A DNA stretch of 64,000 bases, taken from the NCBI GenBank assembly GCA_964016885.1, contig OZ024744.1:2480001-2544000 (forward strand), in the 5' to 3' direction. Shown here one piece after another: positions 131-63,800 of this stretch. The notes beneath the pieces are model-generated. The model did not search any database. It was given only the letters and a program-made list of their open reading frames with translations, and was not told the origin of the DNA. Position 1 is the stretch's first letter; each line of letters opens with the position of its first letter. A program made the translations under genes and the position numbers. Source of the stretch: Eledone cirrhosa. Lineage: Eukaryota.

Positions 131-404
131 ATGGTGTTTTTATTAAATATGGACTTGAAGACAAAATTTAGGAAATATGAAAGCGAGGCTGAAAAAAAAC
201 GGGCGAAACGGAATTTTGTAGAGGAGTAGGTACATTTTGTTGGAAGGAATAGGTATATTTTTGATAGAATAATCCAATTCTTAAACGTCCATGGTGTATG
301 TTGGTTAATTTCCTGAAACTGTAGAGTGCTCAACTTATCGGGCTGGAAGGTGCCAATCGTATATGCAATATAGAATGTGCTTCGATCATTCCCGGTTGGA
401 GCTG

Positions 405-537
405 TATAAATGAAGTATTTCCGTCGGAAAGGTACAGGAAATAAGATTGCTCTATGTAGGCTACAGTAATAAGCTCTGTAGCCTATATAGAGCACTCTTT
501 CTTCCTGTACCTTTCCGACGGAAATACTTCATTTATA
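405..537. repeat. Fold-back inverted repeat (short PLE pLTR inversion) abutting (TA)n
   Basis: Arms 405-466 and 476-537 are reverse complements with few mismatches. Confidence 0.85.
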
Positions 538-1105
538 TATATATATATATATATATATATGTGTGTGTGTGTGTGTGTATATATAAATATTCACACACGC
601 TCATTCACACACACAGACACATATATGTATATATATATATATATACATATATATATATATATATATATATATATATATACACACACATATATATATATAT
701 ATATACATATATATATACATATATATATATGTATATATATATATATATATATATACATATACATATATATACATATATATATATACATATATATACATAC
801 ATATATATATACATGCATATATATATATATATATACATATATATGTATATATATATATACATATATATGTATACACATATATGTATGTATAAATACGTAC
901 ACATACACACACACACGTATATACACATACATACATATATTATATATATATACGTACATATATTAATATGTTTGTGTGTGTGTGTGTATATATATATATA
1001 TATATATATATATATATTTATATATAAACGCACACACACGTATTTGTGTGTGTGTATATATATATATACACACTCTCATGTACATTTATATATATATGTG
1101 TGTGC
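534..1105. repeat. Compound (TA)n/(CA)n/(TG)n microsatellite, representative of dozens in the window
   Basis: Direct reading; source of the [14 protein letters not shown] pseudo-ORFs. Confidence 0.98.
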
Positions 1106-1133
1106 ATGGGTCCTTCTTTCTGGTGTTTCTTAT

Positions 1134-1441
1134 AGTGTTGTTAGCTGACTTTTGGCTGCTATTTCTAAAGTGTCTATTAATATATGCTAGAAATAGCAGT
1201 CAAATGTCAGTTAACAAGACCAAATAAGAAGGATTATATAAACTGCACACCCGCAAAATGTTTAACTTAATTTCCGGCTTTAAGTAAGACAAGAGTTATC
1301 TTTCTTGCCAAATATTCTCCGTTTGTTGACATAAAAAAAATCTATTGTTTAAAAAGTTGAGGCTGAATTTTAGCTAACTTTTTTCATCTTGTCCACTTCC
1401 GGTTTCAATTTTCGCGCTAGAAATAGCAACCAAGAGCAACA
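1134..1441. mobile_element. Non-autonomous interspersed repeat with tgctatttcta/tagaaatagca inverted motifs (probable MITE)
   Basis: Related copies at about 29950-30445 (+) and 34850-35120 (-). Confidence 0.5.
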
Positions 1442-1616
1442 TATATAGATATATATAATCCTAATCGTAAAGTGCTTTACTATATAAATATATATATATG
1501 AATGTGTGTATCAGTGTGTATGCATGAGAGCGTGTATGTGTGTATATATATATATATATATATAAATATATATATGTATTTTTATATATATATATATATA
1601 TATATGTATTTATATA

Positions 1617-59480: not shown

Positions 59481-59668
59481 AGGGCGGTGGATTGGTAGTA
59501 TCGGTAGAGGGTCGGACGCCATGCTTTCCAGCATAGTTACGTCCCTTTACGATCTGAGTTCAAATCCCGCCGAGGTTGAGTTTGCCTCTCATCCTTACGG
59601 GGTCGATAAAATAAAGTACCAGTAATGCACTGGGTAATTGCTGGCCTTGTGCCTAAAGTAGAAACAAT
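59481..59668 (+). mobile_element. Nin-domain SINE (family 2) nested in the PLE 3' UTR
   Basis: Near-identical to 30127-30314. Confidence 0.88.
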
Positions 59669-60640
59669 TATATATGTTTACTTAATGGTATCAGTTTTAG
59701 GAAATGATAGTTGTAAGAAGGAAAGCAAAATTATGTAGTTCATCAGTAGTAGAATATTAATTATAGGTTAACTAAATTAAAAATAGTTTATATATTAATT
59801 TCTAAAGTGTATATTAATTAGGTTTATAATATTTAAAGGTTTTTCTCAGTTTATGATTACACGATATTATTAATTCCTGTCGCTTATTTAATAGGATATC
59901 CTTAGATTTCATTATTTCAAAACGTTCTTGGGAACATAATCTACATTCATATCTACTATTTTGATAAGGGGTGGCCCTTTTGAGCACACTCCAGGTCAGG
60001 TCATAATCTATATTCCTCTTTCTATAACTATTAATTATTTCAGCTAGAGATGTTGTATTAGCTAGTGCGGCATTTTTAAAACTATGTTTGTGGGTATTAA
60101 ATCTTACCTTAAATTTGTTAGAGGTAGCTCCTATATATGAATAAATTGAGTCCGTAGTGTTAACTTTACATTTATATACTATATTATTAACAAGGCAATT
60201 TCCTTTTAATGGACAGTTTGCCTTATTTCTACAGTTACAACTTTTCGTGAATCCTGTATCTGAGGAGATATTATGGTTAGTTTGATGTACTGGTGGTATA
60301 CTCATGGTTTTTTTTACATTTATATGCATTATAGGCACTTATATTTTGTTTTATGTTTTTGGTTGTTGAGTAGGAGAATTTAACCGTTGATCTATTTAAG
60401 ATTTGATGGTATTTGTGGTTTGGCAGGAAGTTTTTCTCTAGGATATTAAAGAATTTTTTAGGTATAATATTCTTTTCCATCCAAAACTGAAATCTACCTT
60501 CCTCTACCCATAATTTAAGGTTCTTCTACTACTATATTACTATCTTGACCCTCACTATCTCTCTATTGGTAAATTCAAAACCTGTTCCCAAACAGACCTA
60601 TTGTATTGAATCTTTTTTTTTTCAATAAACAAATATCATT

Positions 60641-60772
60641 ATTTCTGAAGACAGCATATATATGTGTAGGTATGTATATTCCCTCTGATAGTTTGTATAA
60701 ATATTGTACATAGATCTATAGAATATGCATACCAACTCTAACACATATATATCCTAGAAACGATCGTAAAAT
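60641..60772 (+). ncRNA. Hammerhead with ~105-nt stem II (mirror 58460-58591 -)
   Basis: attt CTGAAGA cagcatatatatgt...acatatatatccta GAAA cgatcg TA aaat. Confidence 0.7.
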
Positions 60773-60845
60773 GATGAATTTTTTTAATATAAGGAACTGT
60801 TTCTTTGTTTATTCATTATTTTATTAATTTATATATATATATATA

Positions 60846-63800
60846 TATTTATTAAAATAACAGATTAAAGTTTAAGCAAAGAATCGCTGCTTTCACCCTT
60901 AACGGGATCTTCTGAAACTAACAAAGTCAATCTGTAGACGCAGAACTGGATATTTCAAAAAACGTTGCAACCGGAGGAAGACAGGAAGACGATACGGTTC
61001 TTATATATTTGATATTTATTTATCCTTATCGAGCCCTCTTTGGATTTTAGTCTTCAAATTTATTATTATTACTATTTGGCTCCCTCGGTTGAGCACTCTA
61101 CTGACTTATATTCATCATGCAGAAACAACATCTGAATATTTCTACAAAGAACATACCCGTACCAAGCAGGAAAACATACCTAAAACTCCTGATACAGAAA
61201 ACAGACGCGTTCATTAAAAGGTTGCGTTGTCGTGACTTTTATTTCGATAATCCGCGAAAAGCAGACAACAAACAGGATAAATTTGGATTTAAAACCTATA
61301 ATAACCCGCCGTGGAATCCAGCATTGCTACCCTTCGAAAATGATGACTTGGAACTCATTCGGAGTATCAAATTTCGGAATAGCAGCAATTCCTTCCAGCA
61401 AGACCTGGAGAATAGAATTCGTTCTATTAAGGATTCTAATGCCGTGCACGTCCATTCCGACAAAACTGGCTAACTATATCAAGTGGAGCGCAGTACTTAT
61501 CATCAACTACTACATAATGCTGTAACTAAGGATTACCGTAAAACTAATCGTTGCTTTCATCAATGAAATCAACGATGCTGGGTTTAAAATCACATCTGAT
61601 CTCAACATCCTGGACCGGACCGAACCTCTGGACCCTATTTCTCCCCACTTTACCCTGAAGGATCACAAATCCAATTTTCCGAAAAACCCCTCTATTCGGC
61701 TTATTAACCCTACGAAGTCCGATTTAGGTAGACTTAGTAAAACGATTCTTGATAGAATTATACCTGAAATTAGAAGTTTGGCCCCTCTTGCACTGTGGAA
61801 CAATTTTTTCGCGGGGATTAATTGGTTCAACGGCATATGTAACAAGGAACATTGCCGTTTTATCCAATTCGACATCAACAATTACTACTCCTCCATCACT
61901 TTACCACTTATCCTTAGAGCTATCAATTTCGCTAAAACACTCACAGTGGTTAAGGATTTCGAAGTTGATGTCATCCTCAATGCCCGAAAGTCGGTGATTA
62001 ATTTCGACGACTCTATTTGGATTAAAAAATCCAATAGTACCCCATTCGACGTGAGTATGGGCGCCAGTGATTCTGCGGAGGTTACTGATCTTATTGGCCT
62101 TTTCCTTCTTTTCTCTATCAAGGACGAATTCCCCAACACGGGCGGTGGCTTGTACCGTGATGATGGTCTTTTGACCATGACTAAGTGCGGACCTCGTGCT
62201 TGCGACAGGTTCAGAAAAGAACTCACAGCCTTCTTTAAAGGCTTCAACCTCTCTATACAGGTTGAGGCCAATCTCTCGGTCGTTAATTACCTCGACGTTA
62301 CCCTCAATTTATTGAATGGGTTGTATTACCCGTATAGAAAGCCGAATGATACGCTTAATTACATAAGTAAGCATTCCAACCATCCTGCCAGCATAACCAA
62401 GAACCTGGTACGAAACGTTTCGTTGAGGCTTTCCCGTCTTTCCACCAACGAGCGTATTTTCAACGACCATTCCACTTATTACAATGAGGCTCTTGCTCGA
62501 AGTGGATTTGTCGATAAGGTAGCATATACAGAGTACGAAAATAAATAGACCTAGAAGTAATATACCCCGTCGCATTTTTTGGTATAACCCACCATATAAT
62601 ATGGAGGTGGCCACACCATTAGCTAAGATCTTTCTTTCCCTTATTACGAAGCATTTTCCCCCTACACATAAATATAGTAAAATTTTTAATAGAAATACTA
62701 TTAAAATTTCTTACTCTACGACTCCTAACCTTGCACATAACATCACAGCTTCAAATTTAGCTAAACTACCTAGCCGTAGGAACACGTGCAACCCTGTAGT
62801 TAGTACTAACTGTAATTGTAGGAATCGGGCTGATTGCCCCCTATCCGGGAAATGCCTCTCTAGCAACATTGTCTACAAATGTAAGGTTGTAACACCCACG
62901 TCCCGTAGGGCCTACATAGGGTTAACCGCCAATAGTTTCAAGCAGCGTCTTTACATGCACACCCATTCTTTTCGTTACCCTCTAAGAAGGAATATGACGT
63001 CACTTTCAGCTTATATCTGGAGTCTAAAAGACAACCACACCCAATATAAGTTACACTGGGATATCCTAGCTAGGGCTAGATCGTATAACGGAAATAAAAG
63101 ACCATGTGACCTCTGCACCGCTGAGGCCCTGGAAATACTCTACGCCACAGACCACATCTTAAATAAAAAATCTGAGGCAATTTCGGCTTGTAAACATAAA
63201 TTGCACAAAACTTTCCTGTATTACAGCCCCACGTTATACCCTGACGGATAGGACGATCTATACGTGGATATTTTACGTCTTGATGTGGGAGCTAAGTATA
63301 TGTTTTGTTTATACCTTTACTTATTTGCATAGGTAAGTATATTTTACCCGTATGTTTTGTGAAGGTACGTATACCTTCTCGTACGTATATTTGATTGTTA
63401 TGGCGTATAATTTTATATATTCTGGTACATATGGTTTGGCTATGTGTATACGGGAGTTTTGCGTCTGTGTGAGTATGCAGGTTCGTAAGTTTGGTGGGTG
63501 TGTACTTCATGTTTTGGTTGACTTACGTCTCCGAACATTCGTGTATTTATATGTAGGTATGTGTGTGCGCTTGTTATATACGTATTTATTTATTTATATA
63601 CGTTTATATAATTATTTATTTATTTGTATACTCGCAAACACACACACACACATATTTATATGTGCGGGGTTTTGTATACCTATGGTAAGTTTTTGCGTAT
63701 GCTTGTGTATGTACGTATTTGTTTGCGTGTATGTATTTATTTATTTCTATTACTTCTGTATTGTATTTATTTACTTTGTTCTTAACTCTGAGGCGGAGAT

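What the first reader, a model, noticed from the sequence alone, without database searches (positions are those of the whole stretch)
402..61079. PLE insertion termini sit 2-8 nt upstream of the bulged helix: candidate reverse-transcription initiation signal
Seen: where one pLTR copy ends at (TA)n and another copy shows the continuation, the end lies in a short TA-rich tract just before the helix. Gaps from terminus to RCTC: family A 15798 (3 nt) and 11763 (5 nt); family B 9788 (2 nt) and 61075 (3 nt; two copies end here, at about 5002 and 9877); 405 (2); 2288 (2); 2520 (5; also the copy at 28863); 9040 (8) and 9044 (4); 19396 (4); 27198 (4); 43930 (5); 58400 (4). Families A and B each have two helices: the first marks the end of the inverted copy and the second, just before the ATG, marks the end of the direct copy. 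Established: PLE RTs are related to telomerase RT, and internal initiation of reverse transcription has been reported for a PLE. Inference: the helix positions the RT so the adjacent UA tract anneals to nicked (TA)n, like a template-boundary element. This would explain both the target choice and the asymmetric fold-backs. Exceptions: the 8307, 33910, 36661 and 57566 fold-backs and the 9236 end (at (TG)n) show no such helix at the terminus.
Basis: partly seen in the sequence, partly recalled or inferred. Interest (0 to 1): 0.92.

Follow-up and report, generated by a model that had tools for sequence, protein, structure and literature searches.

The report
Twin RNA helices set retrotransposon ends
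One group of jumping genes related to telomerase (Hydra-type Penelope-like elements) carries two copies of a small predicted RNA hairpin, and every two-ended insertion examined ends just before one hairpin on one side and just before the other on the opposite side, likely because each hairpin tells a reverse transcriptase where to start copying.

Summary
Confirmed and extended. All 13 gaps are in the sequence (2-8 nt). The elements are Hydra-clade PLEs. The motif (RCTC-stem-loop-stem-2-nt bulge-GAGY) is clade-wide: 31 of 52 distant loci carry it upstream of the ORF (1 antisense), usually twice about 60 nt apart, with covarying inner pairs. Family A 3' ends fall only at the two helix sites (S1, S2) among 60 TA tracts. 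All 42 two-armed insertions tabulated pair S1 with S2. Second helices predicted for two further families were found. About a quarter of S1 ends carry 7- or 9-nt re-copied template units. All four exception families belong to other PLE clades. Corrections: which arm uses which helix is not fixed; on a sense template the helix lies 3' of the start, so it is no telomerase-type boundary (stop); helix-free clades also target (TA)n. Best reading (0.7, untested in vitro): two RT docking sites on one RNA, each priming one target strand. Two-site internal initiation is known (PAc); I found no paper on the motif, strict pairing or reiteration.

The parts
11806..14265 (+). Family A ORF, 819 aa, Hydra-clade PLE RT plus C-terminal GIY-YIG-type EN
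   Evidence: SWR 38, DKT 123, YRDD 354, CxCX5C 678, YVGST 712, CxxC 776, CxH 804; model pLDDT 85, top fold matches are telomerase RTs
11538..11763 (+). Family A 5' direct pLTR; 11763 = site S2 in the run-on copy
   Evidence: direct repeat of 15737-15961
11603..11636 (+). Family A helix 1 (6-bp inner stem, TT bulge)
   Evidence: outer pairs at probability 0.99-1.0 in a 271-nt fold
11769..11785 (+). Family A helix 2, 5 nt after S2 and 20 nt before the ATG
   Evidence: outer stem in MFE
15737..15961 (+). Family A 3' pLTR with S1 (15798), helix 1 (15802-15835) and the end at S2 (15961) in (TA)n
9879..11547 (-). Inverted arm of family A (copy of 14130-15798), outer end at S1
15790..15798 (+). 9-nt template segment re-copied in tandem at S1 ends elsewhere in the genome
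   Evidence: 304 copies, only 10 followed by the helix; units of 7 or 9 nt
9791..9836 (+). Family B helix 1 (S1 = 9788; second sub-site 5 nt further 5')
61079..61094 (+). Family B helix 2 (S2 = 61075), before the family B ORF
   Evidence: 28 of 30 loci end at or within 11 nt of this point, 2 run on
4917..4961 (+). Family B helix 1 in the short copy ending at S2 (about 5002)
328..402 (-). Helix after the 405 terminus (long loop)
2291..2310 (+). Helix 1 of family D; its predicted helix 2 and Hydra ORF were found elsewhere
2491..2514 (-). Helix 1 of family C (also 28929-28952 +); predicted helix 2 and Hydra ORF were found elsewhere
9049..9088 (+). Helix after the 9040/9044 termini (family with HHR core at 8944)
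19371..19391 (-). Variant helix (TCTC) after 19396
27168..27193 (-). Helix after 27198; diverged relative at 52886-52911 keeps it with a changed inner stem
43895..43924 (-). Helix after 43930; a second, mutated helix at 43809-43826 follows the 44135 terminus
58315..58395 (-). Helix after 58400 (long loop)
8311..8600 (.). Exception fold-back: non-Hydra PLE (DKG motif, CX2-5CxxC linker, two Cys in the EN core)
33911..34495 (.). Exception fold-back: non-Hydra PLE with HHR core, two ends 57 nt apart, 27,800 anchor copies
36663..37058 (.). Exception fold-back: non-Hydra PLE with HHR core
57567..57820 (.). Exception fold-back: non-Hydra PLE, two ends about 38 nt apart

Best explanation
Hydra-clade PLEs carry two copies of a conserved bulged helix just before the ORF and their insertions end 2-8 nt 5' of these helices, likely because each helix docks one RT subunit on an uncut tandem transcript and holds the adjacent UA tract in the active site. 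Shown: motif, spacing, covariation, S1+S2 pairing, terminal repeats. Inferred steps: (1) the EN cuts both strands in (TA)n; (2) each 3' end anneals to the UA tract before helix 1 or helix 2 of the same RNA; (3) early products often slip back one TATA box and re-copy 7 or 9 nt, as telomerase does, before elongation; (4) the two cDNAs meet at their 3' ends, join by short microhomology and are filled in, giving a head-to-head insertion whose arms differ by the S1-S2 segment (the 'tail').
For: Motif upstream of the ORF in 31 of 52 distant loci against 1 antisense and 6 of 306 ORF windows. With no bulge assumed, 62 of 76 RCTC..GAGY candidates pair after a 2-nt 3' bulge (5, 5, 13, 16 for 0, 1, 3, 4 nt); C-G 44 and T-A 16; permutation mean 35, max 49. 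Family A TA-joined 3' ends occur only at S1 or S2 of 60 TATA/ATAT tracts. In distant loci 11 of 14 informative repeat pairs diverge 0-5 nt before a helix, several without a (TA)n flank (scored by eye). Predicted helix 2 found 3 nt past S2 in families C and D. 42 of 42 two-armed family A insertions are S1+S2; 14 family B pairs likewise. Both arms are truncated within 20 nt of each other in 12 of 42, against a permutation mean of 1.26, as expected of a shared template. S1 arm longer in 13, and 4 S2 arms do not reach S1, so neither arm is simply a copy of the other. Re-copied units at 11 of 41 unselected S1 ends and 0 of 87 run-through occurrences; lengths 7 or 9 nt only, the limit of the RNA's own UA tract; 304 genome-wide, 10 followed by the helix. 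Precedent: PAc initiates internally at two sites on both strands and needs RNA 3' of the start (PMC11167929).
Against: No biochemistry and no RNA data. Which strand folds is not shown: G-U against A-C counts were 2:1 and 8:8. Helix 2 is often weak (about -3.5 to -4.6 kcal/mol for the local fold; inner stem 1 bp in families A and B). In PAc the start site was not homologous to the target and did not differ between strands. Four non-Hydra families give two alternative ends at (TA)n without this helix, so it is not needed for the pattern in PLEs at large. Misses: 9236 end at (TG)n about 40 nt short of S1; 3 of 14 distant pairs (L138, L154, second pair in L161); 21 of 52 distant loci fail the strict scan (11 of 52 the relaxed one). 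Most family A loci were picked by anchors near S1, so ends far upstream are under-sampled. 30 of 42 insertions have arms truncated at different points, which one shared RNA does not predict.
Confidence: 0.7

Rival explanations
1. The helix directs cleavage of the RNA just 5' of it (by the protein or as part of a ribozyme), and RT then starts at the new 3' end as in ordinary TPRT.
For: Sharp ends; PLE transcripts carry ribozymes; families A and B have no HHR core in their 3' regions, so another processing signal is conceivable.
Against: The motif is only 15-25 nt in most cases with no conserved loop. The 150 best Rfam matches listed for the window (of 293 at E<=5) hold no ribozyme. It does not resemble the minimal TS-like core of 5- and 6-nt loops (PMC11620745 passages). 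S2 arms run through S1 in 38 of 42 insertions, impossible on an RNA cut at S1 unless two RNAs are used, which would not give strict pairing. Gaps vary from 2 to 8 nt and family B has two sub-sites at S1.
Confidence: 0.09
2. The template is antisense RNA; RT makes sense DNA outward from the palindrome centre and the helix acts as a true template boundary (stop), with slippage at the boundary (self-priming model of Arkhipova 2013).
For: It gives the same 7/9-nt repeats and keeps the telomerase geometry; 12 of 42 insertions have near-symmetric centres; proposed in PMC3846280 (passages); strand test inconclusive.
Against: A fold-back arm cannot be longer than, or lie outside, its template arm; 13 S1 arms are longer and 4 pairs do not overlap. 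PAc uses sense RNA and target priming, with starts equal to genomic ends.
Confidence: 0.07
3. The motif is read in DNA: the EN cuts a tandem or circular DNA intermediate at a TA tract next to the hairpin, and the ends are resolution sites.
For: The tail was earlier ascribed to EN-mediated resolution (PMC8557442), and D. virilis EN needed the tail in DNA (as cited in PMC11167929).
Against: Loops of about 3 to 70 nt with a covarying inner stem and one-sided bulge do not fit a duplex site. Terminal repeats capped at 9 nt fit polymerase re-priming.
Confidence: 0.08
4. The helix has another job (packaging, translation, promoter) and ends fall on the neighbouring UA tracts for unrelated reasons.
For: It sits in the 5' UTR, 20-130 nt before the ATG; helix-free clades also have two fixed ends.
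Against: The gap stays at 2-8 nt while S1-S2 spacing ranges from about 57 to 163 nt across families; 58 other TA tracts in family A are unused; blind predictions held.
Confidence: 0.06

Closest known systems
Hydra-clade PLEs (Craig et al. 2021, PMC8557442)
   Same: RWK-like, DKT, CxCX5C, CxxC/CxH motifs, no CCHH, (TA)n insertions. The same helix is visible by eye in their File S7 consensi: Hydra-2_Amil, Hydra-2_Ajap and Hydra-1_Ajap, whose consensus starts 2 nt before helix 1.
   Different: The sections and passages read do not describe the helix ('stem-loop' 0 occurrences in the main text). Families A and B have no HHR core in their 3' regions, and the family A unit is 4.2 kb rather than under 3 kb.
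PAc Poseidon internal initiation (Frangieh et al. 2024, PMC11167929)
   Same: Two internal RT start sites equal to the genomic ends; the 'tail' is the segment between them; both strands cut and extended; RNA 3' of the start needed; dimer predicted.
   Different: PAc starts inside an AC-rich stem-loop in the ORF, non-homologous to the target, with no strand difference. Here each site has its own conserved helix 3' of it, a UA tract matching the target, one site per end, and re-copied units. The PAc RNA stretch in Fig. S1B shows no such motif (text layer only).
Telomerase RNA template, alignment region and TBE (PMC4993307)
   Same: Internal template next to a small helix; 3' alignment tract; re-use of a short template bounded by a repeated box; the model's top fold matches are TERTs.
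   Different: TBEs define the 5' stop; this helix lies 3' of the start on the sense RNA. Re-copying is occasional (1-5 units) and then runs into processive copying of kilobases.
L1 twin priming and 3' slippage repeats of LINEs (recalled, from no call)
   Same: Second target strand primes on the same RNA; inversion; microhomology at the junction.
   Different: The L1 second primer lands at variable places; here both sites are fixed, and the arms usually overlap, giving palindromes.

Membership tests
Hydra-clade PLE | Single ORF with RT and C-terminal GIY-YIG-type EN | tested here: met
   819-aa ORF, YRDD 354, YVGST 712; Pfam itself gave no significant hit
Hydra-clade PLE | RWK-like motif and DKT in place of DKG | tested here: met
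   SWR 38 (RWR in families C, D), DKT 123
Hydra-clade PLE | CxCX5C linker; CxxC and CxH; no CCHH | tested here: met
   678, 776, 804; one Cys between the GIY and YIG halves
Hydra-clade PLE | Insertion in (TA)n | tested here: met
Hydra-clade PLE | Canonical HHR in the pLTR (common in the clade) | tested here: not met
   No CTGANGA core in family A or B 3' regions; core present in family D (2166 -) and many distant loci
Hydra-clade PLE | Placement in an RT tree with reference clades | not tested
   Reference proteins were only readable as paper text; assignment rests on motifs
Telomerase-type template boundary element | Helix 5' of the template that stops RT | tested here: not met
   Helix lies 3' of the terminus on the ORF strand; met only if the template is antisense
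Telomerase-type repeat addition | Tandem re-copying of a short template through a repeated alignment box | tested here: met
   Sequence footprint only: 7/9-nt units, up to 5, at S1 ends
Telomerase-type repeat addition | Processive translocation by the enzyme | not testable with these tools
   needs in vitro assay
PAc-type internal initiation | Two fixed sites equal to genomic ends, with RNA continuing 3' | tested here: met
PAc-type internal initiation | Start on uncut RNA shown biochemically | not testable with these tools
PAc-type internal initiation | Start site non-homologous to target | tested here: not met
   UA tract matches (TA)n at the ends
Known small ribozyme or Rfam family | Match to a curated model or catalytic core | tested here: inconclusive
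   No ribozyme among the 150 of 293 matches listed; 143 weaker ones not seen

The most novel reading that the evidence does not exclude
Hydra PLEs use a telomerase-like RNP: one RNA carries two identical protein-binding helices, each with its own alignment tract, so that an RT dimer primes both target strands at once and performs short repeat addition before processive copying. This would be a mobile-element version of an internal, helix-positioned, re-usable template in the RT group closest to telomerase.
Probability: 0.4. Interest if true: 0.9.

Novelty: new variant of a known kind. Interest (0 to 1): 0.78.

Why it matters
How PLEs choose their start sites and why they form asymmetric inverted repeats is still open; only one PLE has been reconstituted. 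A motif of about 20 nt, kept across proteins of about 35% identity, gives an exact mutational handle and a young family (2,940 exact anchor copies) to test it in. It also predicts Hydra element boundaries from sequence alone. If it works as inferred, it shows helix-positioned internal priming and short repeat addition in the sister group of telomerase, and offers a compact tag that might let such an RT insert RNA cargo at (TA)n.

Tried and rejected
Homodimer prediction (residues 1-480, two copies): no answer, score 0.00; no evidence either way. G-U versus A-C test for the folding strand: inconclusive (the script stopped before its genome part). A 131-nt DNA search found nothing because common words are skipped; patterns were used instead. 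14 of 20 neighbouring stretches were satellite. An apparent third family B end at 63623-63630 was low-complexity matching. Simple cDNA fold-back as the sole source of palindromes: rejected. Post-insertion slippage from the microsatellite as the source of the repeats: disfavoured, as no 11- or 13-nt units occur. TS-like ribozyme: no likeness. Pfam does not recognise the 819-aa protein. Earlier scan findings: none.
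Full report
What the window holds. 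It lies at G000:C28:2480001-2544000 of a 3.0-Gb genome. Family A is a young PLE: unit 4,199 nt, ORF 11806-14265 (819 aa), direct pLTR 11538-11763 = 15737-15961, and an inverted arm 9879-11547 copying 14130-15798. A 24-nt anchor has 2,940 exact copies; a family B anchor has 17,555. The protein has SWR, DKT, a CxCX5C linker, CxxC and CxH, and lacks CCHH, the features given for the Hydra clade (PMC8557442 section 11). No tree was built. The model (pLDDT 85) matches telomerase RTs best. That the host is a cephalopod is my inference; one homologue is from Argonauta.

The observation. All 13 gaps read out as stated; 19396 has TCTC and 43930 is weakly supported. Outside the window, 8 of 20 non-A/B fold-backs carry the helix at -3..+10, against 0.135 in shuffles; some are the window's own families. 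In 30 family A loci taken in genome order, 15 end at S1 (15798), 13 at S2 (15961) and 2 run into the ORF. In 30 family B loci, 28 end at or within 11 nt of S2 and 2 run on. Across all held genome loci, family A 3' ends joined to (TA)n lie only at S1 or S2, though the unit has 60 TATA/ATAT tracts; the 12 TA-flanked 5' ends are scattered. Most loci were chosen by anchors near S1, so far-upstream ends are under-sampled.

Blind predictions. In families C (2520) and D (2288) the window shows only helix 1 and a second end at (TA)n. I predicted a second helix just past that end. The searches gave 383 and 146 matches (some overlapping, some in flanking CT repeats); most listed rows read GCTC 3 nt past the end. 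Of 15 loci each, 9 (C) and 15 (D) continue into a bulged helix, mostly followed by a Hydra-type ORF about 45% identical to family A; the other 6 C loci are ordinary ends at microsatellites.

The motif is clade-wide. An alignment of 60 proteins brought 77 metagenome loci; 52 have a 5' flank. A strict scan finds the helix upstream of the ORF in 31 of 52, on the antisense strand in 1, and in 6 of 306 ORF windows. A scan that assumes no bulge finds 76 RCTC..GAGY candidates in 41 of 52 loci, two or more in 25, mostly 57-75 nt apart. Of these 62 pair after a 2-nt 3' bulge (5, 5, 13, 16 for other sizes); the pair is C-G in 44 and T-A in 16 (permutation mean 35, max 49; relatedness among loci not corrected). 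The bulge is TT 46, TC 13, TA 8, and ACT follows in 53. TATA or ATAT lies at -12..-2 in 38 of 72, against 128 of 1223 background 11-mers. In 11 of 14 informative repeat pairs the second copy diverges 0-5 nt before a helix (one a variant); L138, L154 and a second pair in L161 do not (by eye; pairs ending at a contig end or under 85% identity left out). Several of these ends have no (TA)n flank, though assembly branch points cannot be excluded. The same helix is visible by eye in published Hydra consensi from coral and sea cucumber, with a variant in sea louse (File S7).

One site per end. Of 42 two-armed family A insertions tabulated (18 anchor pairs, 2 predicted cases, 7 from the ordered sample, 14 selected on S1, and the window), all pair S1 with S2. 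Independent 1:1 choice would give this with probability about 0.5^42. Four multi-part or long cases left out of the table (L049/50, L052-54, L056/57, L244/245) are also S1+S2. Fourteen family B pairs agree. The S1 arm is longer in 13, the S2 arm in 17, and 12 are within 20 nt (permutation mean 1.26, max 7); 4 S2 arms do not reach S1. Junctions mostly overlap by 1-11 nt; 8 have gaps. That a tail often sits at one end only is already in print (PMC8557442), and the helix-free 33910 family shows the same alternation.

Re-copied units. The 9 nt before S1 are repeated in 304 copies genome-wide; only 10 are followed by the helix, and 29 of 30 sampled loci end in (TA)n. Among unselected loci, 11 of 41 S1 ends and 0 of 87 run-through occurrences (overlaps counted) show it; 4 further hits were distant chance words. 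Units are 7 or 9 nt. Nine is all that the RNA's own UA tract offers, whereas slippage from the microsatellite should also give 11 or 13. Short repeats also occur at some S2 and family B ends. I infer re-priming on an anchored RNA template.

Exceptions. The 33910, 36661, 57566 and 8307 families have a CX2-5CxxC linker and two Cys in the EN core; 8307 has DKG. They are canonical non-Hydra PLEs. So the helix is Hydra-specific, and (TA)n targeting and two alternative ends exist without it. The 9236 end is a true family B miss.

Mechanism and limits. The best reading is two docking helices on one sense RNA, each presenting a UA tract to one cut target strand (0.7). The dimer, the EN cuts, the annealing and the joining are inferred. 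On a sense template the helix is 3' of the start, unlike a telomerase boundary element; it would be a boundary only under the antisense model, which the arm geometry disfavours. The folding strand could not be fixed from wobble pairs.

Literature seen. PMC8557442: part 2 of 10, section 11, passages, supplement parts 1, 2, 52, 53. PMC11167929: parts 1-2 of 4, text layer of supplement 1, supplement 3. PMC3846280: part 2 of 5 and passages. bioRxiv 2026.07.22.740005, PMC11620745 and PMC4993307: passages. Seven searches listed no paper on this helix, on strict site pairing or on terminal re-copying in PLEs; the library lacks most subscription papers and Repbase.

Verdict. Real, clade-wide and predictive; a new variant of PLE two-site internal initiation, awaiting one direct experiment. 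Interest 0.78.

Noticed in passing
L061-L065, L072-L080 (both sides of the window): Long satellite arrays flank the window, which lies in an island of about 115 kb.
   Followed up: no
window 8311-8600, 36663-37058, 33911-34495, 57567-57820: Non-Hydra PLE families have two alternative ends 38-65 nt apart; small hairpins follow the first end in the 8307 and 36661 families and could be their own signals.
   Followed up: partly
window 14262-15961 and 63250-64000: Families A and B have long 3' regions with no HHR core, yet are highly amplified.
   Followed up: partly
window 11806-14265: Two low-confidence stretches in the ORF (aa 485-534 and 628-673, the second Asn-rich), like the N-rich inserts of A. 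vaga Penelope.
   Followed up: no
L026-L028: Family A insertion made of tandem 507-nt units spanning both helices (15596 to 11904), in both orientations.
   Followed up: no
L082, L084, L097: Family B S2 ends run into (ATT)n, matching the template's own ATT repeats: either another target or slippage.
   Followed up: no
L244/L245 and L263: Both arms of one insertion carry the 9-nt repeats, one arm then running through helix 1.
   Followed up: partly
window 2606-4229 (+) and 59814-60338 (-): Further broken Hydra-type ORF fragments; 6461-6946 is a non-Hydra GIY-YIG EN.
   Followed up: partly
window 37064-37640 and 45513-47300: C2H2 zinc-finger arrays (84-nt period), followed by 72-, 100- and 47-nt tandem repeats at 47400-52100.
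   Followed up: no
window 17038-18651 (+) and 21863-25336 (-): LINE-type RT and endonuclease reading frames, judged from the translations alone.
   Followed up: no
window 25216-25992: Long trinucleotide-repeat tract reading as poly-Q and poly-T.
   Followed up: no
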